Counted from the stretch's first letter, positions 1,854 through 62,470 are shown. The stretch is DNA of 64,000 nucleotides from an uncultured Candidatus Saccharibacteria bacterium (GCA_964593805.1 CAZQHP010000001.1:389283-453282), one strand, 5' to 3'. Numbers and translations: made by a program. The notes: generated from the sequence alone by a model not told the origin.

Positions 1854-1927
1854 TGGCTGGGGAGGAGGGATTCGAACCCCCGATCGTGGAACCAGAATCC
1901 ACTGCCTTACCACTTGGCCACTCCCCA
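1854..1927 (-). tRNA. tRNA-Gln (anticodon CUG), CCA encoded
   Basis: The reverse complement is TGGGGAGTGGCCAAGTGGTAAGGCAGTGGATTCTGGTTCCACGATCGGGGGTTCGAATCCCTCCTCCCCAGCCA. It folds as a cloverleaf: acceptor TGGGGAG/CTCCCCA, anticodon stem GTGGA/TCCAC with loop TTCTGGT (anticodon CTG), T-loop TTCGAAT, discriminator G, then CCA. Confidence 0.9.
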
Positions 1928-5433: not shown

Positions 5434-5667
5434 ACTTAACAACTCAAAAGATATAAAGAGCGTGGGTTAGAGATCTAGCTCGATGCCTGTCCACCAAAGT
5501 ATTGGCGGCGGCGGAACCCACCAGCAACCCGTGGCAAGCAGCGTATCCCGAAAGGTTTACCCTGAGCTTGTCGAAGGGTGCTCCATCTAGTCCGCGTTAG
5601 CGGAGAAGATATTGACTCGCGATGAATATCCTTTCCGCTAGACATAAAGCTCAGAAAGGATTTTTTT
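5434..5667 (+). promoter_or_regulatory. SAM-I-type riboswitch, copy 2, upstream of metK
   Basis: It has the same core blocks as copy 1 (ATATAAAGAGCG, GAGATCTAGCTC, CCAGCAACC, GGTGCTCCATCTAG, AAGATA), with larger P2 and P3 insertions. P2 is GTGGGTT/AACCCAC (GCAG/CTGC in copy 1). P4 is TCCGC-GTTA-GCGGA (CCCGC-CTG-GCGGG in copy 1). A TGtgaTACAAT promoter at 5417-5427 overlaps the metE stop codon. Confidence 0.7.
5628..5667 (+). terminator. Riboswitch expression-platform terminator
   Basis: ATCCTTTC (5628-5635) pairs with GAAAGGAT (5654-5661). TTTTTT follows, then the metK ATG at 5668. Confidence 0.6.
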
Positions 5668-6783
5668 ATGACAAAAACAACTTTATTTACCAGCGAATCA
5701 GTCTGCGCCGGCCATCCGGACAAAATCTGCGACGCTATCAGCGACGCCCTGCTAGACGAAATTTTGCGGCAAGATCCACAGGGGCGTGCCGGGATTGAAT
5801 CGGTAGCCGGCGCCAATCAGATTTGCCTGTTTGGAGAAACAAAAACGACCGCAAAACTAGACAAAGAAGCCATTGTGCGCGAACTAGTCCAGCGGCTTGG
5901 CTATGCGGTGCCTGCCTGGGGGTTTTCCCAAGAATCCAGTTTTAGCGACGATATTCACCAGCAATCACCTGAAATTTCAATTGGGGTTGACCAAGAGGGC
6001 GCCGGCGACCAAGGCATGATGTTTGGCTACGCCTGCGACGAAACGCCGGAACTTATGCCGCTGCCAATCACGCTGGCTCACGCCCTGACTCGCCGTATAG
6101 ACGAAGTTCGCGAAAAGAAAATCCTAGACTACATTCGCCCCGACGGCAAAGCCCAAGTAACCATCCGTTATGAAGACGACAAACCAGTAGCAGTTGAAAA
6201 AGTTGTAATAGCAGTTGCTCATAGCGAAAACACCGACCCATCGACTGTGCACGCTGGAGTAGTCAAAGAAATCATCACGCCGGTTCTGGCCAAGTACAAA
6301 CTAGCCGTGCCAAGCGATGAAAACATCACCATAAATGGCACTGGTTTGTGGCACATCCCCGGGCCGGAATCAGACGCCGGACTAACTGGCCGCAAGATTG
6401 TGGTTGACGGCTACGGCGGCTACGCCCGCGTGGGCGGCGGCGCTTTTTCTGGCAAAGACCCGTCCAAAGTGGACCGTTCTGGCGCTTACGCCGCCCGCTA
6501 CATTGCCAAAAACATCGTAGCCGCGGGGCTGGCTACCAAGTGCGAAGTGGGACTGGCTTACGTAATTGGCCAGCCAAAACCGCTAATGCAAACCATAGAA
6601 ACCTTTGGCACCGCCACTGTTTCGGACGCGGAATTGCATGCTTTCAAAGACAAACTCATAGACACTTCCGTCAAAGGCATTATAGACACGCTAGACCTGC
6701 GCCGCCCCATCTATTCTCAAACGTCTGCCTATGGTCACTTTGGCAAAGACGGCTTGCCCTGGGAGAAGGTAGTAAAAGCTTAA
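5668..6783 (+). CDS. metK: S-adenosylmethionine synthetase
   Basis: 371 aa. FTSESVCAGHPDKICDAISDALLD, GAGDQGMMFGYA and GGGAFSGKDPSKVDRSGAYAARY are classic MetK signatures. Confidence 0.95.
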   Translation: MTKTTLFTSESVCAGHPDKICDAISDALLDEILRQDPQGRAGIESVAGANQICLFGETKTTAKLDKEAIVRELVQRLGYAVPAWGFSQESSFSDDIHQQSPEISIGVDQEGAGDQGMMFGYACDETPELMPLPITLAHALTRRIDEVREKKILDYIRPDGKAQVTIRYEDDKPVAVEKVVIAVAHSENTDPSTVHAGVVKEIITPVLAKYKLAVPSDENITINGTGLWHIPGPESDAGLTGRKIVVDGYGGYARVGGGAFSGKDPSKVDRSGAYAARYIAKNIVAAGLATKCEVGLAYVIGQPKPLMQTIETFGTATVSDAELHAFKDKLIDTSVKGIIDTLDLRRPIYSQTSAYGHFGKDGLPWEKVVKA

Positions 6784-6895
6784 ATTCTTTCCACGCCCGC
6801 AAAGAGGCTAAAACAGTTGTAGATATTTGACGCTTATGGTATAATGTTCCTTAGAATGTGAGAGCGCTTGCATAACGGGCGCTCTTTGAATTTAT

Positions 6896-8722
6896 ATGAC
6901 CCAAGATCCCAGCAAGATTAGAAACATCGCCATAATTGCCCACGTGGACCACGGTAAAACCACGCTGGTGGACGGTTTGCTCAAACAATCCCAAACTTTT
7001 CGCGACAACCAGGCCGAAATGAGCCAAGAACTTATCATGGACAGCGGCGACCAAGAGCGCGAACGCGGCATCACCATCACGGCCAAAGTCACGGCGGTAC
7101 AGCACGGCGACTACCGTATCAACATCATTGACACCCCTGGGCACGCCGACTTTAGCGGCGAAGTAGAGCGCACGCTCAACATGGCAGACGGCTGCATCCT
7201 GATAGTCGACGCCCAAGAAGGCCCGATGCCCCAGACCAAGTTTGTGCTCAGCAAAGCCCTGGCCAGCGAACTAAAACCAATCGTGATTATAAACAAAATA
7301 GACAAACCGGCCGCGCGAATTAAAGAAGTAGAAGACGAACTGGCCGACCTGTTCCTAGAACTGGCAGTCCACGCAGACCAGCTGCATTATCCGGTGTACT
7401 ACGCTGTGGGGCGCACCGGCAAAGCCTGGGTCAAGCCGCCTGAACACCCAGAAGCAGACGGCGACCTGGAAGCTATCTTCCAGGCTATCATCGAGCACGT
7501 GCCAGCGCCCCAGATTGAAGCCGACAAACCGTTCCAGATGCTAGTTACGGCACTGGCATGGGACAGCTTCAAAGGCAAATACGCCATCGGCCGCATCAGC
7601 CGCGGCAGCATTAAACCCGGAGACCCGATTACGTTGTGCAAAAAAGACGGCACACTGGCAAAGGGCAAAGTAGACAACGTCTACATGAGCCACGGGGTTA
7701 GCAAATTTGAAGTGCCGGGCGGAGTAGCTGGTGACATTGTCCAACTTACCGGTATCACTGAGGCGCAGATTGGTGAAACTGTTGCCGATGCCACAAACCC
7801 GGAAGCTTTGCCAGTGCTAGAAGTAGAAGCCCCTACGCTCAAAATCTATCTGGGTCCCAACACCAGCCCGTTCAAAGGCACAGAGGGCGAATTTACCACC
7901 AGCCGCCAGATTGGCGAGCGCCTGGCTAAAGAACTGGAAACCAACGTTGGCCTGCGCGTGGGCGAGCAAGGCATCGGCTTTTTGGTGTCCGGCCGCGGCG
8001 AACTGCACTTGAGCGTGCTGATAGAAACCATGCGCCGCGAAGGCTATGAATTTGAAGTTGGCCGCCCGCAAGTGGTTACGCGGGAGCACGAAGGCGTGAC
8101 CGAAGAGCCGTTGGAAGAACTTATCATTGAAGTGCCGGCCGAACACGTCGGCACAGTCCAGATGGAACTGGGCACTCGCCGAGCCGTGCTAAAAGAGCAA
8201 TTTGCCAGCCCCAAAGGCGTCACCAAACTGGTCTACGAACTACCCACTCGCGCTCTGCTTGGGTTGCGCAACATTTTGCTGACCAATACCAAAGGCACGG
8301 TTATTATGAACTCCCTAAGCATTGGCTACCAGCCGCTGGGCGCCGCCCTGCAACAGTTGCGAAACGGCGTGTTGATTGCGTTCGAAGCCGGTATCACCAC
8401 ACCGTATTCGCTGCAAACTGCCGAAGAGCGGGGCGTGGTATTCGCGGGCCCGGCCGAAAAAGTTTACGCCGGGCAAATAATCGGGCTCAACAAACGCCAG
8501 GAAGATATGGAAATCAACGTCTGCAAAGCCAAGCATCTGACCAATATGCGCAGCAGCTCCAGCGACGGCGTAGTCCAGCTGACCCCGCCAGTTATCTTTA
8601 GTCTGGAAGAGTGTCTGGACTTCATAGAAAACGACGAACTGCTGGAAGTCACCCCCAAATCGCTTAGACTCAGAAAAAAGGAACTGGACCCAAATAAAAG
8701 GAAAAGACAAAAGTCCGTATAA
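6896..8722 (+). CDS. typA: Translational GTPase TypA/BipA
   Basis: 608 aa. [27 protein letters not shown] and NKIDK are the GTPase motifs. Length and the C-terminal domain are typical of BipA. Confidence 0.95.
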
Positions 8723-8729: not shown

Positions 8730-9113
8730 GTGATTGAAGTATCTGACGAACAATTTGACAAACTGATTGGGCAGTCCATGGACGAACTGCCGCAGGAATA
8801 CATAACGGGCATGAAAAACGTGGTGGTAACGTTTGAAAACAATCCCAGCCCCCAGCAGCGGCTCAAACAACAGCTGCGCCAAGACCAGACGCTGTTTGGT
8901 TTGTACGAAGGCATACCGCTGACCAGGCGCGGCGCCGGCTACAATCTAGTTTTGCCAGACAAAATTACTATCTTCAAAGGTCCTATTAGCCAGTCCAGCA
9001 CCGATATGCCGAGCCTCAAGCGGCAAGTCAAACACACGCTGTGGCATGAAATCGCTCATCACTTTGGGCTAGACCACGACCGGATTCATGAAATCGAACG
9101 CAACTGGCACTAG
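8730..9113 (+). CDS. Minimal zinc metallopeptidase-like protein (DUF1025/zincin-like)
   Basis: 127 aa with HEIAHHFGLDH (HExxHxxGxxH). GTG start. TATAAT (8718-8723) lies 6 nt upstream and overlaps the typA stop codon. Confidence 0.7.
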   Translation: MIEVSDEQFDKLIGQSMDELPQEYITGMKNVVVTFENNPSPQQRLKQQLRQDQTLFGLYEGIPLTRRGAGYNLVLPDKITIFKGPISQSSTDMPSLKRQVKHTLWHEIAHHFGLDHDRIHEIERNWH

Positions 9114-9132: not shown

Positions 9133-9546
9133 ATGTTTCATTACCGCAAAAACCTCAAAACCTACCGCAGCTATCCTAAGCCAGCGGTTTGTTCTTTTTG
9201 CGAAGCTGATTTAGCGGGCAGCAAGGTGCTAGAAACGGAGCATGCTTATGTGGTGCCAAACCGGACGTTTTACGACCTGTGGGAACTGCGAAGCGTAACC
9301 GACCACTTGCTGGTGGTACCCAAGCGTCACGTGGGCAGTCTTAAGCAATTGACCAAAAAAGAACGCACGAACGTCATGGATATTTTGTGCGATTACGAGG
9401 CTCGTAACTATAACGTCTATGCCCGGGCAGTAAACAGCAAACAGCGTTCTGTGGAGCACCAGCACACCCATCTAATCAAAACCCATGACAAACAAGCCCG
9501 CGGCACCATAACTATAAAAAAACCGTACCTACTTATAAAATTTTAA
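9133..9546 (+). CDS. HIT-family nucleotide hydrolase/transferase
   Basis: 137 aa with the histidine triad VEHQHTHLIK (HxHxHxx). Confidence 0.75.
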   Translation: MFHYRKNLKTYRSYPKPAVCSFCEADLAGSKVLETEHAYVVPNRTFYDLWELRSVTDHLLVVPKRHVGSLKQLTKKERTNVMDILCDYEARNYNVYARAVNSKQRSVEHQHTHLIKTHDKQARGTITIKKPYLLIKF

Positions 9547-50536: not shown

Positions 50537-53500
50537 ATGGCCAAAGACAGCTCACTGATAGCTGCGGACTACGTGCACTTGCACAACCATACGCAGTACA
50601 GCCTGCTGGACGGGTTGACACGCGTTGATCAGCTGATGGATTATGTGGTCGAACAGGGCATGTCCGCGGTCGCCATGACTGATCACGGCACGCTATCGGG
50701 TACGATTGAATTCTACAAAGAAGCAGTCAATCACGAAGTAAAGCCTATTATAGGTATTGAAACGTACGTGGCGGCGCGCGGGCATACAGACAAAGACCCG
50801 GCCAAAGACAAAACCCGCTTTCACCTAATTTTGCTGGCCATGAACGAAGCGGGCTATCAGAATCTAATGCAGTTGAGTACAATCGCCAATCTGGACGGTT
50901 TTTACTATTTCCCGCGCATAGACCATGAACTGCTGGAAAAGCACAACGAAGGTTTGCTGGTACTAAGTGCTTGTATGGGCGGAGAAATTGGCAATGCACT
51001 CAAAGAAAATCAATACGAAAAAGCCAAAGAAATTGCCAAATGGTATAAAAATGTTTTTGGCGACCGTTACTATCTGGAAATTCAAGACCATGGCCATCCA
51101 AAAAATCCCATGCATAATGCCGAGCAGCAGGCAATCAATGAGCAAATTCTCAAACTTGGCAAAGAGCTGGCAATCGAAGTGGTTGTGACGTGCGACGCTC
51201 ACTATTTGCGCCATGAAGACCAAGACGCCCACGAAATATTGCTGTGCGTTGGCACCGGGTCGTTCCTGGCAGACGAAAAACGCATGTCTCTCAAGGAATT
51301 TCCCCTCCACGTTACGCCTCCTGGCGAAATCATCAAACGCTGGGGCGCCACCCACCCCCAAGTTATAACCAACACCAAAGCCATAGCCAACCGCTGTAGT
51401 TTGGAGATAGATCTTGGCAAAATTCTGATTCCAAAGTTTGAGGTACCGAAGGGCAAAACCGAAAAAAGCTACCTGCAGGAACTGGTCTACCAAGGCTTGG
51501 CTTGGCGCTACGGCAACGTAAAGCGCGAAGCCGCCGCAAAACTCAGCCAGGATGCCGCCGTAAAAGGTTTGCCCCCAGAAGTCAAAAAGCGCGCTGAATA
51601 CGAACTGGGCGTGATTGGACAAATGGGTTTCAACGGCTACTTTCTGATTATCCAGGACTTCATAAACTGGGGAAAAAATAATGGCATCGTGTTTGGCCCG
51701 GGCCGCGGTTCGGCGGCCGGCTCTATTATTTCTTACGCCTTGAATATCACCGAACTTGACCCGCTCAAATACGACCTGCTGTTTGAGCGTTTTCTGAACC
51801 CCGACCGAATTTCCATGCCGGATATTGACATAGACATTCAAGACACGCGCCGGGATGAAGTAATCCAGTATTGCGTACAAAAATACGGCAGCGACCGTGT
51901 TGCCAACATCGTAACCTTCGGGCGGATGCAGGCCCGCAATGCCGTGCGAGACGTTGCCAGGGTCTTGCAAATGCCGTACGCCGATGCCGATCGCTTGGCC
52001 AAAATGATTCCGCCGCCCATCCAGGGCCGGCACATCCCGCTGGAAGCGTCTCTGCGCGAAAACAGCGAACTAAAAACGGAGTATGAAACCAACGAGGCTT
52101 CCAAACAGGTGCTTGATCAGGCGGTTCGGCTGGAAGGCACGATTCGAAGCCATGGCGTCCATGCCGCGGGCGTGGTCATAGCTCCAGATAAATTAGTCAA
52201 ATTCGCGCCGCTGGAAATGGCCCAAAAAGGCGTAGTAGCTACCCAATACTCAATGGGCCCAATCGAGGAACTAGGACTGCTCAAAATGGACTTTTTGGGC
52301 TTGTCAAACCTCACCATCATCAAAAACGCCCTGCGCATTGTGAAAAAAGTCTACGGCAACGACCTCGCGGTCAAAGATATACCGCTAGATGATGCCAAAA
52401 CGTTCAAACTGTTCCAGAGCGGCGACACAACCGGCTTGTTCCAGTTTGAATCGGCTGGCATGAAGCGTTATCTCAAACAACTTAAACCAACGGTTTTTGA
52501 AGACCTGATTGCCATGAACGCGCTGTACCGTCCCGGCCCAATGCAGTGGATAGAAGATTTTATTGCCCGCAAACATGGCGAAAAAGAAATCAGTTTTTTG
52601 CACCCGGCCATGGAACCGGCGCTTAAAAACACCTACGGCATTATCGTCTACCAGGAACAAGTTATGCAGATTAGCAAGGAAATGTGCGGCTTCACCGGCG
52701 GCCAGGCCGACAGCCTACGCAAAGGAATTGGCAAAAAAATTCCAGCCGTTTTGGCCAAATTCAAAACCGAGTTCATAGAAGGCGCCGTAAACACCGTTGG
52801 CGCGGATCGGGCGCTCATGGAAAAGTTTTGGAAACAACTGGAGGCCTTTGCTTCGTACGCCTTTCCCAAAGCGCACTCTTCTTGCTATGCTCTAATCGCC
52901 TACTGGACGGCTTACTTAAAGGCCAACTATCCAGACGTTTTTATGGCGGCTCTCATGACCAGCGATTATGACGACATTGACCGCCTGGCAATCGAAATCA
53001 CAGAGTGCAAGCACATGGGTATTGAAGTTTTGGCTCCAGATATCAACGAATCTTTTAACGAATTTGCCGTGGTTCCCAGAAAAAAACAAATTCGGTTCGG
53101 GCTTAGGGCGGTCAAAAACGTCGGCAGCAACGCGGTCGATGAAATTCTGCGCGCCCGCGATCAAATCGGCAGCTTCAAATCGTTGGAGGACTTTTTTGGC
53201 AGTGTCAATGTGCGGACGGTTAATCGCAAGTCTTTAGAAAGCCTCATGAAAGCCGGCGCGTTCGACAGCCTGGGCGAACGGTCGGTCTTGCTCGGCAACA
53301 TAGACGTACTGCTGGCCTACGCCAACAAGACTCAGAAAGATGCCGCCAGCGGACAAACTGATTTGTTTGGCAAGCTTGCCGGCCACGTTAAGCCGCGGCT
53401 GGCGCTAAATACAGCCGTCCCAGAAATTAACCAGCACGAACAGTTGCTTTGGGAGCGCGAACTATTGGGGCTGTATCTTAGCCAACACCCGTTGTCGCAG

Positions 53501-54238: not shown

Positions 54239-55219
54239 TTAGCGGATGAAACCGGTGGTTTGGCTCAGGAAGCTGCCCGCTAGTACCAGGCTTACCAGCA
54301 CGCTGTCCAGCAGTGGGTGGTGCAGTACAAACCGTTCGCTGTCTCTTATGAGATGGCGCAATCCGGCGGCGTGTTTGATAAGCAGTATGGCCACGGCCAA
54401 GCCCGTTATGAGTCCGACTCCAAACAGTGCCCAGGGGGCTTGGCCGTTTGTCAGCGTTTGGATACGGGCTACCGCCGTTGTAGCCGGTTCGGTCACGACT
54501 GCAAGATCACTTGTAACGGGGGTGGACTGGCTTGGTTCGGCAGTACTGGCTACCGGTTGTGCGGCCGGGGTCTGTGCTACTTTGGTCTGAGCTGGCGCGG
54601 GAGCCGCCGCTATGGGAGCTGGGGCGCTTGCCGCCAGGACTTGCGGCTTGGCGTACATGGCCACTACCACAGTTTCCTCGCCGTCATTGTTGAAGTTTTC
54701 GCCATTGGCAAAACCGAACCCTACCTCTGTATACGTGGCGTCAAGCATATTGGCGCGGTGGGATGCGCTGTTCATCCAGCCTGTTACCGTGTCGTCGCTC
54801 GTTAGGAAGCCGTAAGCTAGGTTTTCGCCCGCCTTTTGGTATTTGTAGCCGGTATTGTCCACAAAAACCCAAGGCTGTTGGCCGTCAGGGGTGGTGTGCG
54901 ACCAGTAGTTGCGCGTAACCATATCATTGGCTTTGGCTTGGGCCGCCGATGACAAGCTGGTATTGAGTTGCAGGCTACCCGCACCGTTCTGGGTTCGTTG
55001 GCCGTTAGTGGCTTGCAGCAGCCCGCTGCCGCTCACACTGGTAGCATAAGCCAGCACGCCGCGCCTTTGGATTGGCTGGGCTATGTTTAAGAAAAAGGTT
55101 CCAATTACCAGCAAAAGCAGCGGCATATACGGCCAGTAGTGCCGATATTCGTTTTTACGGAGTTGTTTTGGTTTGCTGAGCGCACGAAAATTGTGCGGCC
55201 GGCCCAGCTTTTGCGCCAT
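54239..55219 (-). CDS. CAP/SCP/PR1-domain protein with N- and C-terminal TM helices
   Basis: NYWSHTTPDG, GENLAYGF and WMNSASHRANML are CAP-domain blocks, followed by an Ala/Pro-rich linker. The ORF track starts at 55225. The ATG at 55219 lies 6 nt after TGgTAGAAT (minus strand). Confidence 0.75.
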   Translation of the reverse strand: MAQKLGRPHNFRALSKPKQLRKNEYRHYWPYMPLLLLVIGTFFLNIAQPIQRRGVLAYATSVSGSGLLQATNGQRTQNGAGSLQLNTSLSSAAQAKANDMVTRNYWSHTTPDGQQPWVFVDNTGYKYQKAGENLAYGFLTSDDTVTGWMNSASHRANMLDATYTEVGFGFANGENFNNDGEETVVVAMYAKPQVLAASAPAPIAAAPAPAQTKVAQTPAAQPVASTAEPSQSTPVTSDLAVVTEPATTAVARIQTLTNGQAPWALFGVGLITGLAVAILLIKHAAGLRHLIRDSERFVLHHPLLDSVLVSLVLAGSFLSQTTGFIR

Positions 55220-55231
55220 AAGCATATTCTA

Positions 55232-55400
55232 CCACATCTTCGCACCGGTCACCCGGCCTATTGGCAGAGCCAAAAGCCCCGCTGACCTCTTGGCACCGGG
55301 CACAATTTTCCTCTGCGATGCTCGCAAGTAGTACTTTTCGTACAACTTGCTCCGCTTCTCGAGAAGAAATTACGCCCGGCACTCAAGTGCGAAGATGTGG
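55232..55400. other. 169-nt structured intergenic element closed by a perfect 14-bp inverted repeat
   Basis: CCACATCTTCGCAC (55232-55245) pairs with GTGCGAAGATGTGG (55387-55400). Internal hairpins include GCAAGT-a-GTAC-ttttc-GTAC-a-ACTTGC (55334-55360), CCGGGC/GCCCGG, TTGGC/GCCAA/TTGGC alternatives, and the palindrome CTTCTCGAGAAG (55365-55376). Confidence 0.5.
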
Positions 55401-55407: not shown

Positions 55408-55902
55408 TTAGCGGAAGCGGCAATGATACAAGCCCATAGCCGCGGCCTGAACCACGTTGAAAGATTCTTTTTTGCCGAGCATGGGTATTTCTAGTGCTAA
55501 GTCGCAAGCTTTAAGCACTTCTGGTTCAATTCCTTCGGTTTCGCGGCCAACAACCAAGGCTATTTTTGGCGTAGGAGACCACTTGGTCAAATCAACCGAT
55601 TCAGGAGTTTGCTCGAGCCCGGCAACAGTGTATGCGCCAGCCCGCAACGCTTCTATAACGTTCATAATATCTGGGTCATGCGCCCAGGCGACCGTTTCCT
55701 CGGCGCCAAGTGCTGTTTTTTGAATTTGCTTGTGTATTTTGGTGGCAATATGCGGCAGCCGAACGTCATCTTTTTGCTTGGGATAAGGCGTGTATCCAGT
55801 CAAATAGACTTTGGTCACTCCCAGCCCATCAGCAGTCCGCAACAAAGACCCCACATTGTGGCAACTCCGTAAATTATGAGCAATCAGTACAATATCCCGC
55901 AT
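55408..55902 (-). CDS. SpoU/TrmH-family RNA 2'-O-methyltransferase
   Basis: IVLIAHNLRSCHNVGSLLRTADGLGV, LVVGRETEGI and IPMLGKKESFNVVQAAAMGLY are the SPOUT motifs. The ORF track starts at 55968. The ATG at 55902 (MRDIVLIA) is preferred because TTTACA-16nt-TACACT-6nt precedes it. Confidence 0.8.
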   Translation of the reverse strand: MRDIVLIAHNLRSCHNVGSLLRTADGLGVTKVYLTGYTPYPKQKDDVRLPHIATKIHKQIQKTALGAEETVAWAHDPDIMNVIEALRAGAYTVAGLEQTPESVDLTKWSPTPKIALVVGRETEGIEPEVLKACDLALEIPMLGKKESFNVVQAAAMGLYHCRFR

Positions 55903-55961
55903 AACCCCAGTGTATAAACTTCCCAAACTTTGTAAAGCTCTATAATCTCCCTCGTCTACAG
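55817..55961. repeat. Direct repeat copy 1 (trmH promoter plus the first 30 or so codons)
   Basis: About 145 bp, matching 57276-57421 in the same orientation. By hand alignment I counted about 18 differences including 1 indel. Confidence 0.75.
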
Positions 55962-56006
55962 TAACCAATCTTTACATGGTTAAGTATTGGAATATACTCA
56001 TTAACG

Positions 56007-56585
56007 ATGAGTGGCGAAACTATTCCAAAAGCAACACCAAGACAAAGAGTCTTTGCGGGAGTTGCCGTACTTGGTCTGTTCGGAAGCCCCTTTGCAGCCC
56101 ATGCGCTTGAGCACAAACTTGACTCTCAGTATCGGCCTCCCGAGACGGTTGCTAAAGAGCATGCCATGCAAGAGGCTGTTAGACGGGGCGACTGTTATCA
56201 AGTACTCAGAGATAATTATGATAGCAATCGAGGAGCTTCGGTCATCAGATTAGCGAGCATGACTGACCAAGAACGAACGGCATGCGGTGTCAGGGTCACT
56301 AGAGACACACTTGGAAACCTAAATGTCGATGTGGAATTAGGAGGGCAACAGCTTGAGCGTAACTCTAACCCATTGTTGCAGCTTCCCGATGAGCAACAAG
56401 TATCAGCTGCAAATAATGAGGTATACGAAAGGATCCAATCTGGTTACTGGGACGGTACGCCCTATCAACAGAGGAGCTGGGAGCTCTACGCGTTCATTGC
56501 AAGCTTCGTATTCGCTGGAGCCACAGGCGCTGGAATAGAAATAATAAACATGAGAAAAGGGCAGAAGCCAGTACCCAGCTACTAG
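56007..56585 (+). CDS. Hypothetical exported protein with a C-terminal TM anchor
   Basis: 192 aa. Signal-like N-terminus (VFAGVAVLGLFGSPFAAHA) and C-terminal TM helix (LYAFIASFVFAGATGAGIEI). It lies inside the repeat-bracketed insertion and is AT-richer by eye. Confidence 0.5.
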   Translation: MSGETIPKATPRQRVFAGVAVLGLFGSPFAAHALEHKLDSQYRPPETVAKEHAMQEAVRRGDCYQVLRDNYDSNRGASVIRLASMTDQERTACGVRVTRDTLGNLNVDVELGGQQLERNSNPLLQLPDEQQVSAANNEVYERIQSGYWDGTPYQQRSWELYAFIASFVFAGATGAGIEIINMRKGQKPVPSY

Positions 56586-56661
56586 CTCAATAACTTTTGC
56601 ATTCCAGACACGAATCTCCCATCCCCAGCTAATTTTTAATCGTATGCATTATACTTAGGCA

Positions 56662-57189
56662 ATGGATTACAGACTGCCGCTAATACTGTCGGCTTTGTTG
56701 ATAAATGGAGTGCACGGTTCGTTACTTGTATTTCATAAAACTAAGCGAAAATGGACTATCAGCGAACACGCAATTTTGGGTAAAAAATCCTTCCTTGTTT
56801 ACGTTATCGGCCACTTGCTGAACGGTATATTGTTTTTAATCTTTGCTAGAAACTATTTCCTAGGCGTTGTGAGCATGAAAGGTATATTTGCTTTGAGCGT
56901 CTGGACCGTGGCATTTGAATATATACAGGCCTTGCTGCCAGCAAAGGGTAAAACAAACGTGCCTCACACAATCGCAGCTTTAACTATGTGGGTTTCGTTT
57001 CTGTCATTAGGGTTGCTCTGTATAGCTTTCCTGCCTGTGGGAGCTTCCAGAAAAATATTAGCGTCGGTGACGTATTCTTGCATACTTGCTGTTTTGGTTT
57101 ATGCCAACAGCCATAGGCAAGAAACATATTCATGTCAGATGCTCATGGTTTTATTGTTCTATGCAGCAATGCTAGTACTTGTGGCTTAA
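56662..57189 (+). CDS. Hypothetical polytopic membrane protein
   Basis: 175 aa with about 5 hydrophobic helices. It lies inside the repeat-bracketed insertion. Confidence 0.5.
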   Translation: MDYRLPLILSALLINGVHGSLLVFHKTKRKWTISEHAILGKKSFLVYVIGHLLNGILFLIFARNYFLGVVSMKGIFALSVWTVAFEYIQALLPAKGKTNVPHTIAALTMWVSFLSLGLLCIAFLPVGASRKILASVTYSCILAVLVYANSHRQETYSCQMLMVLLFYAAMLVLVA

Positions 57190-57247
57190 CCAAAAATCCC
57201 AACCTCGTTAACTGCCCCCAGCCAATCTATTTTGCACAAAATAACAC

Positions 57248-57361
57248 CTACAGAGGAACGTCCACTTTTTTGCCCACGCCCAGCCCGTCTGCGGTCCGCA
57301 GCAAAGACCCCACATTGTGGCAACTCCGCAAATTATGAGCAATCAACACAATCTTTCGCAT
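57248..57361 (-). pseudogene. Truncated 5' fragment of a trmH paralogue (37 codons, then stop)
   Basis: My translation is MRKIVLIAHNLRSCHNVGSLLRTADGLGVGKKVDVPL*. The intact gene reads MRDIVLIAHNLRSCHNVGSLLRTADGLGVTKVYL. The upstream promoter copy has a degraded -10 box (CACACT). Confidence 0.65.
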
Positions 57362-57421
57362 AACCCCAGTGTGTAAACTTCCCGCACTTTGTAAAGCTCT
57401 ATAATCGTCCCTTATCTCCAG
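57276..57421. repeat. Direct repeat copy 2
   Basis: See 55817-55961. Confidence 0.75.
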
Positions 57422-57429
57422 CCAGTTTT

Positions 57430-57909
57430 TTAAAAAGTCTCAGACTCCCCTACAGGAACTGGCTTACAATATTCCACTACGTTACTAGAAATAACGTCGT
57501 GTACCGATACGAAGGCTGGATACCACGTTTCGTAGCCTTCGTCGCCAGTGAGTTCAACGTAGTCATCAAGAATATCATGTAGATTGGTGGCAAACTTTAC
57601 TTGATCCTCGGAAGCTAATGCTGGTCCGAAAGCAAATTCCACAGTGTACTGCCCACCACCAACATCCGTCACTAGAATATCCGACTGGCTACAAGCAAAG
57701 TACCCAGCAGCAAAACTGAGCTTTGCCCATGTTTCCGCATCCGGGAGCGCTCGCATCATCTCAGCGATACCAGCGTCTGAAGGTTCAAAATGTTGAGCTA
57801 TTTCAGGAAAAGTATCTTTCGGGGGGAGTTCGGCCTCTTCTCTTGAGCTACAAGACCCAGCAACCAAACCAAGAGCAGCGCCTACCACTAGACTTCTTAA
57901 ATATTTCAT
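57430..57909 (-). CDS. Putative lipoprotein, unknown function
   Basis: 159 aa. Signal peptide with the lipobox-like LVAGSC. Acidic mature domain. Confidence 0.5.
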   Translation of the reverse strand: MKYLRSLVVGAALGLVAGSCSSREEAELPPKDTFPEIAQHFEPSDAGIAEMMRALPDAETWAKLSFAAGYFACSQSDILVTDVGGGQYTVEFAFGPALASEDQVKFATNLHDILDDYVELTGDEGYETWYPAFVSVHDVISSNVVEYCKPVPVGESETF

Positions 57910-57967
57910 TGACTTTATTTATATCATTTATTATGCGCCTAGACTAATCACAACATTTTGATAACGT

Positions 57968-57991
57968 GGTTCGAATCCTGCACCCCCAGCC
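57968..57991 (+). repeat. Orphan tRNA 3'-end fragment (T-loop plus acceptor strand), possible att remnant
   Basis: GGTTCGAATCCTGCACCCCCAGCC consists of a T-loop, 3' T-stem, 3' acceptor ACCCCCA, discriminator G and CC. No complementary TGGGGGT or 5' T-stem lies in the preceding 75 nt. Confidence 0.5.
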
Positions 57992-58036
57992 TGGAACACT
58001 TAGCTTTATGAACTAGCTATGGTTATAATAGGCGCT

Positions 58037-59635
58037 ATGAGTCAAGATGCTAGGGCGGACGAAGAAGCCAATACGCTGCGGCGAGCGCAGATTCTGAATC
58101 TTCAGTATTCTGATACCTCTGCCAGCCAGAAACAGCTGTACAAAGACCTGCTGCCACTGCCGGATATGTACAATTTGCGTGTGGTTCCGCTTGTGGCGGA
58201 TGATCACAATGTAACTTTTGGCGTCACCAACACGACTTCACAGCAAACCATGACCCGGATGCGCCAGCAATTTTTGGATCAGCGAGTTACTTTCATGCTG
58301 ATTTCTGACACCGGCTACCGTGAATACATGAAGCTTTACGACCCGCCAAAAGCCGTAGAATACCATAACATTTCGCTGGCGCGGAGCGGCAATGATGACC
58401 GATCTGCCCAGGTATCGGCCACGCTTGAACAAGTCCGCGCCGACGATATGTTGGCTTATTTGGTACAGCAAGCGCACGGACTGAACGCTTCAGACATACA
58501 CCTAGAAACTCAAAAAGATTTTACCCGCGTGCGGTTTCGAGTAGACGGCGTACTGCACGCTGTGGCACGGCTCAGCGCTGAAAAATACCGCGTCCTAATC
58601 GCGGCCATTGCCAGCGCCGGCAACATATCCACTTCTGCCGCCGATGCCCAGCAGGGGCACATAGCCCAAAAAGTCAAAATGGCCGACGGAGCGGAAGTAG
58701 ACGTAAATGTTCGCCTGGAAACCGTGCCTACCATCAACGGCATAGATGTGGTCATGCGCCTGTTTAACATGGACCAGGCCATGTACAGCCTGGACCGGCT
58801 TGGCCTGTCGCCGCCCGAACGGCAAGTAGTGGACGATATTATTGCCAAACCCAGCGGCCTGGTGCTGGCGGTGGGTCCGACTGGTTCGGGCAAGACGACC
58901 ACCCTGTACTCTATGCTGAACAGCCTGAACATAGAAGAACGCAAAATTATCACCATTGAGGACCCGGTGGAATACCAGTTTGCCGGCATCACGCAGATTT
59001 CGGTAACGTCTCAAAATTCTCAGGAAACCAACTTTGCGGACAAATTGCGCGCGGTACTGCGCCTGGATCCGGATATTGTGATGGTGGGCGAGATTCGCGA
59101 TGGCGACACGGCCAAAACGGCCCTGCAAGCGGCTCTAACTGGCCACCTAGTGCTTTCTACCTTTCACGCCAGCTCTGCCGCCGCGGCGCTTACCAGGATG
59201 ATGGACGTGATTGGGCAAAACCCGCTGTTTGTGTCCGCCATACGCCTGGTGATGGCCCAGCGCTTGGTGCGTCGTTTGGATGACCAAACCAAGCAAGCCT
59301 ACCAGCCAGACCAAGCCGCGCTAGGCAAAATTCGCGAAGTTTTGGATACTTTGCCGGCTGGCGTCCAAAAACCAGCGCTCGAAGGGTTACAGCTTTACAA
59401 ACCCGGTTCATCAGATGAAAACCCCTATGGTTTTAAAGGCCAGTTGGCTCTCCGCGAACAGTTTATGATGAAAGGCAAGGTAGCTGAATTGCTAAGCGAA
59501 GGCCACAGCCCTACTACGCAGGACATAGAAGCCGCGGCCATCGCCAGCGGGATGACTACCATGCTGCAAGACGGTATCCTGAAAGTCGTAGCCGGCCAAA
59601 CGACCCTAGAAGAACTCTACCGCGTCATCGGATAA
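58037..59635 (+). CDS. pilB: Type IV pilus / type II secretion ATPase (PilB/GspE family)
   Basis: Walker A GPTGSGKTTT, the Asp box and Walker B (IVMVGEIRD), the His box (LVLSTFHA) and an N-terminal GspE_N-like domain. The ORF track starts at 58019. The ATG at 58037 lies 7 nt after TATAAT. Confidence 0.85.
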   Translation: MSQDARADEEANTLRRAQILNLQYSDTSASQKQLYKDLLPLPDMYNLRVVPLVADDHNVTFGVTNTTSQQTMTRMRQQFLDQRVTFMLISDTGYREYMKLYDPPKAVEYHNISLARSGNDDRSAQVSATLEQVRADDMLAYLVQQAHGLNASDIHLETQKDFTRVRFRVDGVLHAVARLSAEKYRVLIAAIASAGNISTSAADAQQGHIAQKVKMADGAEVDVNVRLETVPTINGIDVVMRLFNMDQAMYSLDRLGLSPPERQVVDDIIAKPSGLVLAVGPTGSGKTTTLYSMLNSLNIEERKIITIEDPVEYQFAGITQISVTSQNSQETNFADKLRAVLRLDPDIVMVGEIRDGDTAKTALQAALTGHLVLSTFHASSAAAALTRMMDVIGQNPLFVSAIRLVMAQRLVRRLDDQTKQAYQPDQAALGKIREVLDTLPAGVQKPALEGLQLYKPGSSDENPYGFKGQLALREQFMMKGKVAELLSEGHSPTTQDIEAAAIASGMTTMLQDGILKVVAGQTTLEELYRVIG

Positions 59636-59753
59636 GTTAAACACACTAAATACTTACCAAATAATACTCGGACACATTCCCGACTTTTAGAGGTCCGCCC
59701 ATTATGTTCCATAAACGCTTGTATTAGCAATGCAATTGTTGTATAATATAACT

Positions 59754-60530
59754 ATGGCAACCCCTGAGCGCTTCGTGCGTGACCCCGGCCAACCCGTAAA
59801 TGCAGTGGATTTTGCAGCATATTCACGTGGTACGAAAGAACCTCTTTGGGAAGATCGCAAAATTTTATCGTACCCAGTTGCTGACTTGGGCGTTATCCCA
59901 CTGTTACATGTTGTTAAGGCGCTCCCTTACGGCATTATAGATTTTAAAACTATGGTTTCTGGTAATGGAGAAGTTGGTGGAGTAAAAACAAGTTACGACG
60001 ATTGGGCGCCTGATGGCAGACAACCACAGAAAGACGAAAAGCTTGGCGAACAAATTGAAGAAAGACTAGCCTACGCAAGACTAGCGCACGCTGCATTAAC
60101 GCCGAGTATTGCAATTGTTGCTAATGATTATCGAGAACGACTTGAGCTAAACGGCTGGGATATAAGCGTAGATATTCAAGGTGCTAAGCACCAAGTAACT
60201 GAGGCTACTGATTTGACAGACCCTAACCTTGATAATGCTCAGTGGCCGCATCTAGACATACGAGGTTTATGGTACTTTGCTTCAATCGGTAAATCTACTC
60301 GCTATTGGCCGGGTGCGTTTAATGTAAGCCTGAAAGATATTGAAGACGACCACCCATTTTACGAACAACAAATTGCCGCCCAACAATCGCCTGAATGCTC
60401 ACTGCCAGAAGATAGCATTGTTTGCGTAGACCGACATCTACTCCATGCAATACCGGTATTCACACCAGAAGAGGTTCCTGCCGATCGGCTAATGGTTTCA
60501 CTTAGCCCAAATCACTCAACCCCACTATAG
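59754..60530 (+). CDS. Hypothetical protein, possible DSBH oxygenase-like fold
   Basis: The ORF track starts at 59730. The ATG at 59754 lies 6 nt after TATAAT. Motifs are WPHLDIR (HxD), LPEDSIVCVD, LLHAIP (H) and DRLMVSL (R). Confidence 0.45.
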   Translation: MATPERFVRDPGQPVNAVDFAAYSRGTKEPLWEDRKILSYPVADLGVIPLLHVVKALPYGIIDFKTMVSGNGEVGGVKTSYDDWAPDGRQPQKDEKLGEQIEERLAYARLAHAALTPSIAIVANDYRERLELNGWDISVDIQGAKHQVTEATDLTDPNLDNAQWPHLDIRGLWYFASIGKSTRYWPGAFNVSLKDIEDDHPFYEQQIAAQQSPECSLPEDSIVCVDRHLLHAIPVFTPEEVPADRLMVSLSPNHSTPL

Positions 60531-61870: not shown

Positions 61871-62470
61871 ATGAGTACATTCCAAGATGGTGGTTATGAG
61901 CGGGAGCTTGATGAAGTATTTTCTAGACGTCAAGCCGAACACCTTGAAGGTCTGGATAGTATATGGGCTGTAGCTGACAGTAGACTGGCTCAATATGCGT
62001 TAAATAGCGGCCTGTCCGCTGATGCTGTTGGAGGAGAAGCGCGCTATGATGAAAAAAGTGCAGCTCTTGCTTTTGCCAACGAAATGAAAGAAGTCCAAGG
62101 AATCATACGAAGCATAGACGATGAAGATTCAGGCGACGCAACAGCAAAGTCCGAACTTGTATATTCAAAAATGAACAGATTGGCACAGCTTGGGCCGCTT
62201 GTTGAGGGTGTTATGGTTTCTGGTTCAAGGTGGCGACAACTTTACTTTGCTAAAGACGAAGCTGATGAATTTGTCAGCAAAGGAAGCCCCTTTAGTAACA
62301 TGCCATTTCACGGATCACTTGCTGGTGCCGAAGTTGTCATAAAAGGAGACGCTCCATACGTATGCTTGGTTGTTGATTTGTCAGCCAACAATCCTCATAT
62401 GCATAACCGTACCAGTCCTGGCCAGAGAGTTTGGATACCGGTGGGTGGTCTTGAATTTCGCGTAGATTGA
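61871..62470 (+). CDS. Hypothetical protein (199 aa)
   Basis: ORF track only. No recognisable motif. AT-richer by eye. Confidence 0.45.
   Translation: MSTFQDGGYERELDEVFSRRQAEHLEGLDSIWAVADSRLAQYALNSGLSADAVGGEARYDEKSAALAFANEMKEVQGIIRSIDDEDSGDATAKSELVYSKMNRLAQLGPLVEGVMVSGSRWRQLYFAKDEADEFVSKGSPFSNMPFHGSLAGAEVVIKGDAPYVCLVVDLSANNPHMHNRTSPGQRVWIPVGGLEFRVD

What the first reader, a model, noticed from the sequence alone, without database searches (positions are those of the whole stretch)
55817..57421. 1.3-kb two-gene insertion bracketed by ~145-bp direct repeats made of the trmH promoter and 5' coding region
Seen directly:
- 55817-55961 and 57276-57421 are direct repeats of about 145 bp, with roughly 18 differences by hand alignment.
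- Each copy spans a TTTACA-16-TAcACT promoter, a start codon and about 30 codons of a SpoU/TrmH methyltransferase.
- Copy 1 continues into the intact gene (55408-55902).
- Copy 2 is a 37-codon stub ending in a stop (57248-57361), with a degraded -10 box.
- Between the copies lie two + strand genes of unknown function: 56007-56585, exported with a C-terminal anchor, and 56662-57189, polytopic membrane. Both look AT-richer than their surroundings.

Inference: this is the footprint expected from Campbell-type single-crossover integration of a circular DNA carrying a copy of the trmH 5' region, or from an element that targets and regenerates the 5' end of trmH. No recombinase is present. That makes the mechanism, and the origin of the cargo, the interesting part.
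Basis: partly seen in the sequence, partly recalled or inferred. Interest (0 to 1): 0.65.

Follow-up and report, generated by a model that had tools for sequence, protein, structure and literature searches.

The report
Stacked gene cassettes beside trmH
A 140-bp duplicate of the trmH promoter and gene start in a Saccharibacteria genome marks where small mobile gene cassettes, normally attached at a glutamine tRNA gene, were stacked into a recurrent insertion hotspot by recombination with DNA from a sister lineage.

Summary
The repeat is real: 55810-55961 and 57269-57421, about 88% identical, the same in two assemblies.

- **Ancestral state.** In 115 related Saccharibacteria loci, pilB and trmH are divergent neighbours 11-186 bp apart, with one exception at 613 bp. 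The window has 2,116 bp there.
- **The lipoprotein gene is itself inserted.** It is flanked by CCAGCC. It ends in a 24-nt tRNA-Gln 3'-end fragment that matches exactly the repeat next to a tyrosine integrase on a prophage contig.
- **The cargo comes from tRNA-Gln cassette arrays.** Cargo1 and cargo2 are separate cassettes bounded by similar tRNA-Gln-like fragments. The closest cargo2 homologue (81%) sits in such an array next to tRNA-Gln in a relative.
- **The site is a hotspot.** A sister genome has the same pilB-trmH site, with the same junctions, filled with different genes. Another has it empty.
- **The two copies are separate alleles.** They differ as much as orthologues of sister species (dS 0.52, dN 0.06).

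My reading: foreign DNA carrying its own trmH start plus cassettes recombined through trmH homology, either as a circle by single crossover or as a linear fragment with one-sided homology. This left a 31-codon stub. No recombinase lies within 75 kb. This is a new variant of known processes and of moderate interest.

The parts
55408..55902 (-). Intact trmH (SpoU-family RNA 2'-O-methyltransferase, 164 aa)
   Evidence: Pfam PF00588, E=3e-28. Orthologues lie next to pilB in 115 related loci.
55810..55961 (-). Repeat copy 1: trmH codons 1-31, the 6-nt GGGGTT, promoter TTTACA-16-TACACT, and about 25 nt upstream as far as the spacer site
   Evidence: The promoter scan hits 55936-55909.
55956..55961 (+). 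CTACAG at the left edge of the 1,292-bp cassette block. It occupies the same position as the CCAGCC site of copy 2.
   Evidence: Read from the sequence. The same hexamer ends a cassette in L172.
55962..56634 (+). Cassette 1: own promoter TTTACA-16-TATACT (55971-55998), ORFan cargo1 (56007-56585, 192 aa; N-terminal and C-terminal hydrophobic segments), and a terminal tRNA-Gln-3'-like fragment (56607-56630)
   Evidence: Promoter scan 10 of 12 matches. No homologue in 5.8 billion proteins. R1 model hit, E=0.011.
56635..57224 (+). Cassette 2: cargo2 (56662-57189, 175 aa, helical membrane protein) and a terminal degenerate tRNA-Gln-3'-like fragment (57193-57224, ...CTGCCCCCAGCCA)
   Evidence: 38 homologues. 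79% nt identity over 605 nt to L168 7426-8030, inside the tRNA-Gln array of a relative. AlphaFold pLDDT 97.
57225..57248 (+). First 24 nt of a third cassette ('flankX'). In relative L168 this sequence directly follows the intact tRNA-Gln gene.
   Evidence: L168 6910-6939 matches window 57220-57248 at 97%.
57248..57253 (+). CTACAG at the right edge of the cassette block, a 6-nt direct repeat of 55956-55961
   Evidence: Read from the sequence.
57248..57361 (-). trmH stub: 31 homologous codons followed by 6 poorly alignable codons and a stop
57269..57421 (-). Repeat copy 2: stub codons 1-31, promoter with a degraded -10 box (CACACT, 57368-57373; -35 at 57390-57395), and the upstream spacer
   Evidence: 89.5% identical to the single copy in the empty-site relative L171.
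57418..57423 (+). Spacer pseudo-att site S2, left copy of CCAGCC (attL-like junction of the lipoprotein cassette)
   Evidence: The same junction is present in L172...CATCCCCAGCC|AAGAG. The reconstructed spacer aligns with the empty L171 spacer.
57424..57991 (-). Cassette 3: ORFan lipoprotein-like gene (57430-57909, minus strand) plus the tRNA-Gln 3'-end fragment GGTTCGAATCCTGCACCCCCAGCC (57968-57991, plus strand), which ends in the right copy of CCAGCC
   Evidence: No homologue. The 24-mer is unique in the window and matches exactly the att repeat next to an integrase on a viral contig. The junction is shared with L172.
57992..58018 (.). Ancestral pilB-proximal part of the spacer
   Evidence: Alignable to L043, L171 and L172.
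58019..59635 (+). pilB-like T2SSE ATPase, the ancestral divergent neighbour of trmH
   Evidence: Pfam PF00437, E=3e-89. Synteny.
1854..1927 (-). Genuine tRNA-Gln(CTG) of this genome, heading a small array of the same kind: AbiGi gene 960-1838, short fragment at about 903-912, 199-aa ORF 264-863, and a 25-nt fragment at 175-200
   Evidence: ARAGORN. Sequence. AbiGi Pfam assignment. R1 hits at 1854-1879 and 175-200.

Best explanation
The repeat is the scar of a recombination that stacked two different versions of one insertion hotspot.

**The hotspot.** In this Saccharibacteria clade the short pilB-trmH spacer contains a pseudo-attachment site, which I call S2. It reads CCAGCC/CCCCAGCC, lies about 55 nt upstream of the trmH start codon, and resembles the 3' end of tRNA-Gln.

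**The cassettes.** Small cassettes, each carrying its own promoter and ending in a 25-30-nt tRNA-Gln 3'-end-like fragment, normally pile up next to tRNA-Gln. They are also found at S2. They were presumably placed by a tyrosine integrase supplied in trans by a phage or another element.

**The event.** The resident chromosome carried the lipoprotein cassette at S2. DNA from a sister lineage carried its own trmH start and promoter. At its own S2 it carried cargo1, cargo2 and the first 24 nt of a third cassette. This DNA was then joined in, using the trmH 5' region as the homologous arm. Two routes would give the same product:
- a 1.46-kb circle integrating by a single crossover (Campbell type);
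- a linear fragment taken up by natural transformation, with one end recombining in trmH by homology and the other end joining illegitimately near codon 31-38 of the resident gene (homology-facilitated illegitimate recombination).

**The outcome.** One complete trmH with a working promoter remains. A displaced 31-codon stub keeps a promoter whose -10 box has decayed.

**Shown:** the insertion, its cassette make-up, its link to tRNA-Gln arrays and to an integrase-associated att sequence, reuse of S2 in another genome, and species-level divergence of the two copies.

**Inferred:** the joining mechanism, which copy is foreign, and the action of an integrase in trans.
For: 1. **Ancestral state.** pilB and trmH are divergent neighbours with a median spacer of 50 bp (11-186, one at 613) in 115 related loci. 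None has a second trmH 5' piece or any homologue of cargo1, cargo2 or the lipoprotein. The closest relative, L171, has an empty 96-bp spacer.

2. **Lipoprotein cassette.** Removing 57424-57991 leaves an 89-nt spacer that aligns with the spacers of L171 and L043. The insertion is flanked by CCAGCC.

3. **Same site, different cargo.** Relative L172 has the same two junctions but carries a 273-aa gene, KARI and an 80-aa gene.

4. **Link to integrases.**
   - The 24-mer at 57968-57991 occurs exactly twice in IMG/VR, both on one 55-kb contig. The two copies lie in a 127-bp direct repeat 52 kb apart, and a PF00589 integrase (E=8e-33) ends 33 nt from the second copy.
   - The L172/L168 variant of the fragment is the 3' end of tRNA-Gln(TTG). 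In 13 proviral contigs it appears either as a full tRNA or as a displaced 3' fragment.

5. **Cargo2 origin.**
   - L168 7426-8030, inside a tRNA-Gln-adjacent array, matches window 56624-57226 at 79% identity.
   - The 24 nt after cargo2 match the sequence that directly follows tRNA-Gln in L168.
   - A sequence model of the fragment hits the 64-kb window only at the tRNA-Gln locus and inside the insert. It also finds two further intergenic sites in the L168 array that were not used to build it.

6. **Boundary of the repeat.** The homology ends on the promoter side exactly at S2, where each copy adjoins a different cassette.

7. **Divergence of the copies.**
   - Copy 1 against copy 2 gives 9 synonymous and 4 nonsynonymous differences in 31 codons (dS 0.52, dN 0.06).
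   - This equals between-species dS for pilB (0.69-0.76), the malic enzyme gene (0.48-0.52) and CAP (0.29-0.74).
   - The stub against L171 gives dS 0.38 and dN 0.03.
   - Neither copy is closer to the other than to the L171 or L172 orthologues.

8. **Competence.** Saccharibacteria are reported to be naturally competent (PMC10633639 and PMC10187176, abstracts). One-sided homologous integration is documented in competent bacteria (PMC3240628, abstract).
Against: - No donor genome is known. Cargo1 and the lipoprotein have no homologue anywhere, so the 'sister-lineage allele with cassettes at S2' is inferred, not observed.
- No reads were available, so neither a circle junction nor population variants could be examined.
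- The right junction is untidy. About 20 nt (57249-57268) align only weakly, about 50%, to trmH codons 32-38. The 6-nt CTACAG at both edges of the cassette block could point to a site-specific step rather than homology.
- Conditioning only on the 13 coding differences, a model with a neutrally evolving stub is not strongly excluded (P=0.11). The stronger rejection (about 15 nonsynonymous differences expected, 4 seen) assumes equal mutation rates at all sites.
- Three derived sites shared by the two copies are also compatible with an old duplication inside this lineage.
- No integrase lies within 75 kb. The host of the prophage contig is unknown.
Confidence: 0.55

Rival explanations
1. A site-specific element targets trmH. 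A circular element, whose attachment region includes a copy of the trmH promoter and first ~31 codons, integrated through a tyrosine integrase at a core inside or next to trmH. It regenerated the gene start and displaced the original one, as the dusA-specific islands and SXT at prfC do. The trmH piece on the element could have been picked up earlier by aberrant excision from S2, as in lambda gal/bio transducing phages.
For: - The geometry matches: an intact gene with an element-adjacent 5' end, and a displaced 5' remnant at the far end. [quoted passage not shown]
- A core-like CCCAGCC lies in trmH codons 26-28 in both copies.
- CTACAG bounds the 1,292-bp block on both sides and also ends a cassette in L172.
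- The cargo clearly derives from integrase-type cassettes.
Against: - None of the 120 or so related loci has a second trmH 5' piece, so trmH itself is not a recurrent target.
- There is no integrase in the element or within 75 kb.
- The shared segment is 140 bp at 88%, not a short semi-conserved core. Its left end lies 10 nt beyond CCCAGCC, and those 10 nt are trmH-derived (9 of 10 match L171).
- The block ends 24 nt into a third cassette, not at an att fragment.
Confidence: 0.2
2. In situ tandem duplication. A ~190-bp segment (trmH promoter plus first 31-38 codons) duplicated in this lineage, and the cassette block later inserted at the duplication junction. The divergence between the copies then arose in place.
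For: - Removing 55962-57253 and one CTACAG leaves two head-to-tail copies.
- The copies share three derived sites against L171, L172 and L043.
- Conditioning on 13 differences, the 2 amino-acid changes seen are not very improbable if half the changes fell on a neutral stub (P=0.11).
Against: - Synonymous divergence between the copies (dS 0.52) equals between-species values, while nonsynonymous divergence is ten-fold lower. A stub that had been neutral for that long should carry about 15 nonsynonymous differences rather than 4, and probably indels or stops.
- The copies are no closer to each other than to the orthologues in L171 and L172.
- No relative shows the intermediate.
- The promoter-side end of the homology coincides with the cassette attachment site S2, which a random duplication would not explain.
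Confidence: 0.1
3. Assembly chimera. Two co-occurring strains with different cargo at the hotspot were joined at the shared trmH 5' sequence.
For: The copies are diverged alleles, as would be expected from two strains. Both assemblies may derive from the same sample.
Against: - Two different assemblers give 100% identical sequence over 5.8 kb.
- The longest exact match between the copies is about 40 nt, far below k=139.
- The stub is joined to unique sequence on both sides (flankX and the lipoprotein cassette), and the contig continues for 776 kb.
Confidence: 0.03

Closest known systems
Genomic islands seeded at tRNA genes, with displaced partial tRNA copies: Islander-type islands (PMC4383910) and the tycheposon islands of Prochlorococcus (bioRxiv 10.1101/2020.12.28.424599)
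   Same: - Cargo is bounded by same-strand 3' fragments of a tRNA.
- Successive units are stacked next to the intact tRNA-Gln (window 175-1927; L168 6841-9528).
- An identical fragment lies next to a tyrosine integrase on a prophage contig.
[quoted passage not shown]
   Different: - The units are single genes of 0.5-0.9 kb with their own promoters, and there is no integrase in cis.
- The array studied here is not at a tRNA gene. It sits at a pseudo-site in the pilB-trmH spacer.
- The host is a reduced-genome Saccharibacterium.
Islands that integrate into the 5' end of a protein-coding gene and supply a new 5' end: dusA-specific GEIs (PMC4482086), and SXT at prfC (from my own knowledge)
   Same: The gene stays intact because the incoming DNA carries a replacement promoter and 5' coding part. 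The displaced original 5' end remains as a remnant at the other side of the insert. The target is also a tRNA-modification gene.
   Different: - Those islands have 17-21-bp semi-conserved att repeats, a dedicated integrase next to att, and the same site occupied in hundreds of genomes.
- Here the repeat is 140 bp of diverged homology, no integrase is present, and no other genome has the trmH 5' end occupied.
Campbell-type insertion-duplication, homology-facilitated illegitimate recombination (PMC3240628) and transformation-generated merodiploids (PMC3784515)
   Same: A segment homologous to the chromosome serves as the only anchor for bringing in non-homologous DNA. The product has the homologous segment on both sides of the insert. 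The host phylum is naturally competent (PMC10633639).
   Different: Those are laboratory observations with near-identical anchors. Here the anchor is about 12% diverged, the event is ancient enough to be fixed in the assembled population, and the foreign part is itself a piece of an integrase-type cassette array.
Integron gene cassettes (from my own knowledge)
   Same: Single-gene units are each followed by a recombination site, arranged in arrays, with different contents at the same site in related genomes.
   Different: There is no IntI, no attI and no hairpin-forming attC. The recombination sites mimic a tRNA 3' end. The cassettes carry their own promoters and occur in both orientations.
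Specialised transducing phage formation (lambda gal/bio; from my own knowledge)
   Same: This would explain how mobile DNA attached at S2 could come to carry the adjacent trmH promoter and 5' end from a previous host.
   Different: It is purely an analogy. No excision product or phage genome carrying trmH sequence was found.

Membership tests
Campbell-type (single-crossover) integration of a circle | Direct repeats flanking the insert are homologous to a segment that is single-copy in the empty site | tested here: met
   L171 has one copy, in a 96-bp spacer with no insert. The window has two copies, 1,459 bp apart.
Campbell-type (single-crossover) integration of a circle | A circular form consisting of the insert plus one repeat exists or existed | not testable with these tools
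   No read data. This needs outward-facing pairs or split reads joining about 57253 to 55962 in SRR8863434.
Homology-facilitated illegitimate recombination | One end lies in homology and the other is joined at a short microhomology, in a naturally transformable host | tested here: inconclusive
   - The homologous side runs seamlessly into trmH.
- The other side ends 24 nt into a cassette and shares CTACAG / ATAAC-like microhomology with the trmH codon 36-41 region, but about 20 nt are poorly assignable.
- Competence is known for the phylum from the literature only.
Gene-5'-end-targeting integrative islands (dusA-GEI / SXT-prfC type) | A tyrosine integrase is encoded next to one att end | tested here: not met
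   No PF00589 or any other recombinase family in the insert or in contig positions 630,275-705,900.
Gene-5'-end-targeting integrative islands (dusA-GEI / SXT-prfC type) | The same site inside the gene is occupied in many genomes | tested here: not met
   No related locus has a second trmH 5' fragment: the 115 loci with pilB and trmH adjacent, and L171-L177.
Gene-5'-end-targeting integrative islands (dusA-GEI / SXT-prfC type) | The incoming DNA supplies a replacement 5' end and the displaced remnant is left at the far end | tested here: met
   An intact gene and a 31-codon stub flank the cassette block. Which copy is incoming is unresolved.
tRNA-seeded genomic island / array of integrated elements | Same-strand partial copies of the tRNA 3' end bound the cargo units | tested here: met
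   - Model R1 hits at 56607-56630, 57968-57991, 1854-1879 and 175-200.
- A degenerate copy at 57193-57224.
- Hits in the L168 array that were not used to build the model.
tRNA-seeded genomic island / array of integrated elements | An intact target tRNA gene sits at one end of the array | tested here: not met
   - Met at the window's tRNA-Gln locus and in L168.
- Not met at the pilB-trmH locus. ARAGORN and Rfam find no tRNA there, and relatives have none.
- The pilB-trmH site is therefore a secondary site.
tRNA-seeded genomic island / array of integrated elements | An integrase recognises this att sequence | tested here: inconclusive
   - The exact 24-mer lies in the 127-bp att-like repeat next to an integrase on one IMG/VR contig.
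- tRNA-Gln(TTG) 3' fragments mark provirus ends in other contigs.
- No activity was tested, and no integrase was found in this genome segment.
Integron | IntI integrase, attI, and attC sites with hairpin potential | tested here: not met
   No integrase in the region. The fragments are tRNA 3' mimics, and in the window copy the 5' half of the T stem is missing, so there is no hairpin.

The most novel reading that the evidence does not exclude
Saccharibacteria may run an integron-like gene-shuffling system with the recombinase supplied in trans. Promoter-bearing single-gene cassettes, mostly ORFans and defence or toxin-antitoxin genes, each end in a 25-30-nt mimic of the tRNA-Gln 3' end. They would be exchanged among the tRNA-Gln gene and pseudo-att sites such as the pilB-trmH spacer. 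Occasional aberrant events would carry along flanking core-gene ends, such as the trmH start seen here. That would be a dedicated route for ORFan gene flux in ultra-small, naturally competent genomes.
Probability: 0.2. Interest if true: 0.7.

Novelty: new variant of a known kind. Interest (0 to 1): 0.42.

Why it matters
Patescibacteria have tiny genomes, few recognisable mobile elements and many ORFan genes, and how they gain genes is poorly documented. This locus gives a concrete, sequence-level example.
- tRNA-Gln-type integrative cassettes also use a pseudo-site between two core genes.
- The same site holds different cargo in sister species.
- DNA from a sister lineage has been stacked in through homology with a core gene, keeping that gene intact.

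The locus also supplies testable sites: S2, the att-like fragments, and the CTACAG junctions. These could be used in recombination assays in the now genetically tractable Saccharibacteria. It is not a new principle. Each step has precedents.

Tried and rejected
1. **Foreign trmH body.** I considered that the whole trmH gene in the window is foreign. TrmH is only 72% identical to L043 against 87% for DnaE. Calibration on other genome pairs shows TrmH always diverges faster. The pattern WIN > L171-L172 follows the species tree. Synonymous divergence in trmH is raised in all pairs. I do not claim this.

2. **Polarising with L043.** Polarising the 16 differences with L043 suggested the stub is more ancestral (10 against 3). 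With the closer L171 and L172 the signal vanished (7 against 5 in -45..+93).

3. **Repeats around other insertions.** I looked for similar long repeats or att-like fragments around the other lineage-specific genes, 59730-60530 and 61871-62470. There were none.

4. **Cargo homologues in mobile collections.** None in IMG/VR, INPHARED phages or PLSDB plasmids. The cargo2 family alignment was too variable for a viral scan.

5. **Functional assignment of cargo.** Nothing from Pfam, PHROGs or PADLOC beyond a borderline DUF2768 hit. The cargo2 model (pLDDT 97) has no significant PDB fold match. The afdb50 library was unavailable.

6. **'Circular permutation' as proof of a circle.** Cargo2-att-flankX in the window against tRNA-flankX...cargo2-att in L168 looked like a permuted order. 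I rejected this as proof because cassette order simply differs between arrays.

7. **Host of the integrase-bearing viral contig.** Only its integrase has a relative among the fetched loci.

8. **Rfam.** No match on the insert or on the hairpin element.
Full report
**1. Observation**

The repeat exists as described. The repeat finder reports one two-copy family, 55810-55947 and 57269-57406 (138 nt, 88%, period 1,459 bp). MAFFT extends it with one indel to about 55961 / 57421.

- Each copy holds TTTACA, 16 nt, TACACT (CACACT in copy 2), GGGGTT, ATG and 31 homologous codons. The start codon lies only 6 nt after the -10 box.
- Copy 1 continues into a 164-aa SpoU/TrmH gene (PF00588, E=3e-28).
- Copy 2 is a 37-codon ORF that stops at 57248.
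- The promoter scan accepts copy 1 and the divergent cargo1 promoter (55971-55998) but not copy 2.
- A Logan assembly of SRR8863434 is 100% identical over 5,794 nt across the structure. Exact matches between the copies are far shorter than the assembly k-mer.

**2. Organism and ancestral state**

The window lies on a 776-kb contig of a Saccharibacterium. I scanned species-representative genomes and JGI metagenomes with TrmH.

- In 115 loci pilB and trmH are divergent neighbours. The median spacer is 50 bp, range 11-186, with one locus at 613 bp.
- The window has 2,116 bp there.
- No related locus contains a second trmH 5' fragment. None contains any homologue of cargo1, cargo2, the lipoprotein, or the neighbouring ORFs 59730-60530 and 61871-62470.

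**3. Closer relatives**

TrmH homologues of 74-82% identity led to Logan contigs. Flanking genes give the tree ((L171,L172),window),L043.

- L171 has an empty site: pilB, 96 bp, trmH.
- L173-L177 and another contig are also empty.
- L172 has the spacer filled with 3.1 kb of different genes: a 273-aa ORF, a ketol-acid reductoisomerase and an 80-aa ORF.

**4. The lipoprotein cassette and site S2**

- The lipoprotein segment is flanked by CCAGCC (57418-57423 and 57986-57991).
- Its pilB-side end is GGTTCGAATCCTGCACCCCCAGCC. This comprises the T loop, the 3' T stem, the 3' acceptor strand, a discriminator G and CC of a tRNA-Gln. No tRNA is detectable there.
- Removing 57424-57991 leaves an 89-nt spacer that aligns with L171 and L043.
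- L172 has the same two junctions:
  - ...TATAATCGTCCTTCATCCCCAGCC|AAGAG on the trmH side;
  - ATATTCGAATCCTGCCGCCCCAGCC|TGGAACACTTAGC on the pilB side.
- The spacer therefore contains a reusable attachment point, which I call S2.

**5. Link to integrases**

- The window's 24-mer occurs exactly twice in IMG/VR, both on one 55-kb contig. The copies lie at the 3' end of a 127-bp direct repeat, 52 kb apart. A 280-aa tyrosine recombinase (PF00589, E=8e-33) ends 33 nt before the second copy.
- The L172/L168 variant is the 3' end of tRNA-Gln(TTG). In 13 proviral contigs it occurs either in a full tRNA-Gln or as a displaced 3' fragment. One contig has both, which is the classical attL/attR arrangement.
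- No integrase, transposase or resolvase family is recorded for any gene in contig positions 630,275-705,900. Any recombinase must therefore act in trans.

**6. The 'cargo' is a piece of a tRNA-Gln cassette array**

- Cargo1 and the lipoprotein have no homologue among 5.8 billion proteins.
- Cargo2 has 38 homologues.
  - The closest (81%) lies in L168. This relative is about 81% identical to window 1916-8690 at the nucleotide level and comes from the same sample as L172.
  - There the gene sits in the array just downstream of tRNA-Gln(CTG).
- L168 7426-8030 matches window 56624-57226 at 79% identity.
- L168 6910-6939, the tRNA 3' end plus the 25 nt that follow it, matches window 57220-57248 at 97%.
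- Units in L168 are separated by same-strand tRNA-Gln-3'-like fragments at 7041-7072, 7405-7433 and 7997-8027.
- The window has equivalent fragments between cargo1 and cargo2 (56607-56630) and after cargo2 (57193-57224).
- A sequence-only model of these fragments hits the 64-kb window only at the tRNA-Gln locus (1854-1879, 175-200) and in the insert. In L168 it finds two further intergenic sites, 8844-8865 and 9503-9528, that were not used to build it.
- More distant cargo2 homologues lie at other loci. One (L170) sits between about 40-nt direct repeats.
- The window's own tRNA-Gln heads a small array of the same kind, with an AbiGi gene and a 199-aa ORF.
- The block 55962-57253 is thus cassette 1, cassette 2 and 24 nt of a third cassette. 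It is bounded by a 6-nt CTACAG on each side. The same hexamer ends a cassette in L172.

**7. The two trmH copies are different alleles**

Identities over -58..+93:

| Pair | Identity |
|---|---|
| copy 1 - copy 2 | 0.83 |
| copy 1 - L171 | 0.85 |
| copy 2 - L171 | 0.87 |
| L171 - L172 | 0.87 |

- The copies are no closer to each other than to the orthologues of sister species.
- In the 31 codons, copy 1 against copy 2 has 9 synonymous and 4 nonsynonymous differences (dS 0.52, dN 0.06). The stub against L171 gives dS 0.38 and dN 0.03.
- Between-species dS of the flanking genes is 0.29-0.76.
- If the stub had been a neutral pseudogene for that long, I would expect about 15 nonsynonymous differences. 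Four are seen.
- With all 13 differences treated as neutral, P(2 or fewer amino-acid changes) is below 5e-5. With half on a neutral stub it is 0.11.
- The stub therefore belonged to a functional trmH until recently, and one copy is xenologous.
- On the promoter side the homology ends at S2, where copy 2 adjoins the lipoprotein cassette and copy 1 adjoins cassette 1.
- On the coding side the homology ends at codon 31. About 20 poorly alignable nt follow before flankX.

**8. Mechanism**

The simplest account has four steps.
1. The resident chromosome carried the lipoprotein cassette at S2.
2. A sister lineage carried cargo1, cargo2 and further cassettes at its own S2.
3. DNA from that lineage, containing its trmH start and promoter plus the cassettes, recombined with the resident through the trmH 5' homology.
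4. The result is one intact gene and a stub.

A 1.46-kb circle with a single crossover would give this structure. So would a linear fragment with one homologous end and one illegitimate end near codon 31-38. Homology-facilitated illegitimate recombination is described for competent bacteria (PMC3240628). Saccharibacteria are naturally competent (PMC10633639).

The linear route explains why the block ends 24 nt into a cassette. The CTACAG pair and the CCCAGCC in codons 26-28 leave room for an integrase-mediated step (rival 1). In situ duplication and assembly chimera are disfavoured (sections 1 and 7).

**9. Comparison with known systems**

- The arrays are like tRNA-seeded islands with displaced partial tRNAs (PMC4383910; tycheposon islands, bioRxiv 10.1101/2020.12.28.424599).
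- The gene-start replacement resembles the dusA-specific islands (PMC4482086). The defining integrase, short att site and recurrent occupancy of the gene are not met here.
- The locus is best filed as a secondary-site cassette array combined with a homology-anchored insertion-duplication.

**10. Composition and function**

- GC3 values are lipoprotein 0.377, cargo1 0.432 and cargo2 0.443, against a window mean of 0.526 (sd 0.078). The other lineage-specific ORFs and AbiGi are the lowest in the window.
- No function could be assigned to the cargo.
- Cargo2 is a confidently modelled helical membrane protein with conserved His, Ser and Gln residues and no PDB fold match.

**11. Verdict**

The mechanism is inferred with moderate confidence. 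This is a new variant of known processes in an under-studied phylum.

Noticed in passing
window 175-1927: The genuine tRNA-Gln(CTG) (1854-1927, minus strand) is followed on the same strand by three things. First, an AbiGi abortive-infection gene (960-1838). Second, a short TCCCCAGCCA copy at about 903-912 and a 199-aa ORF (264-863, plus strand). Third, a 25-nt tRNA-Gln 3' fragment (175-200). This is a small array of integrated units with no integrase.
   Followed up: partly
window 55232-55400: A 169-nt element with perfect 14-nt terminal inverted repeats sits between trmH and the CAP gene. It folds into one long hairpin (-98 kcal/mol, z=-9.6). Relatives have only 7-70 bp at this position. An 85%-identical 108-nt copy lies at another place in L172 (1108-1215, between the malic enzyme gene and pilB). 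It looks like a MITE-like mobile structured element and has no Rfam match.
   Followed up: partly
window 59730-60530 and 61871-62470: Two further lineage-specific ORFs (266 and 199 aa) are inserted between pilB and the malic enzyme gene, and between the malic enzyme gene and L19. They are absent from L171, L172 and L043. They have the lowest GC3 in the window (0.339 and 0.322), no homologue in the fetched loci, and no att-like fragments or flanking repeats.
   Followed up: partly
L168 6801-6914: In the relative, the orthologue of the window's tRNA-Gln survives only as a 5' part (TGGGGAGTGGCC...TAAGGCAGT). It is directly followed by a complete but different tRNA-Gln(CTG) (TTCGGGATCG...). An incoming element seems to have replaced the tRNA rather than only its 3' end.
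   Followed up: no
L172 2946-5802: The same pilB-trmH hotspot in a sister genome holds a 509-aa ketol-acid reductoisomerase gene between two small ORFans. The units are separated by T-loop-containing fragments that end in CCCTCTACAG / CCCTCTAAG, a second type of cassette end.
   Followed up: partly
window 54239-55225 (CAP-domain gene) against L172: Part of the CAP gene is 96-98% identical to L172, while neighbouring genes are 86-90% identical. Synonymous divergence of flanking genes ranges from 0.29 to 0.76. Together these suggest frequent homologous exchange between these lineages around the hotspot.
   Followed up: no
window 55903-55936 and 55971-56006: Both trmH and cargo1 have a -10 box only 6-8 nt before the start codon and no Shine-Dalgarno spacing, which suggests leaderless transcripts. 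In some relatives the pilB and trmH start codons are only 11 bp apart.
   Followed up: no
L164 / L165 (contig just left of the window): This Saccharibacterium encodes a cytochrome oxidase cluster (COX1, COX3, COX_ARM, UbiA) a few kb from the tRNA-Gln array, which is unusual for the phylum's reduced metabolism.
   Followed up: no
L166 / L167 (IMGVR_UViG_3300036859_000189): This 55-kb viral contig has a 127-bp direct repeat at 1-127 and 51973-52099. The repeat ends in a tRNA-Gln-like 3' end but contains no intact tRNA. An integrase lies beside the second copy, and a further tRNA-Gln(TTG) 3'-half fragment lies 2.2 kb beyond it. The host is unknown.
   Followed up: partly
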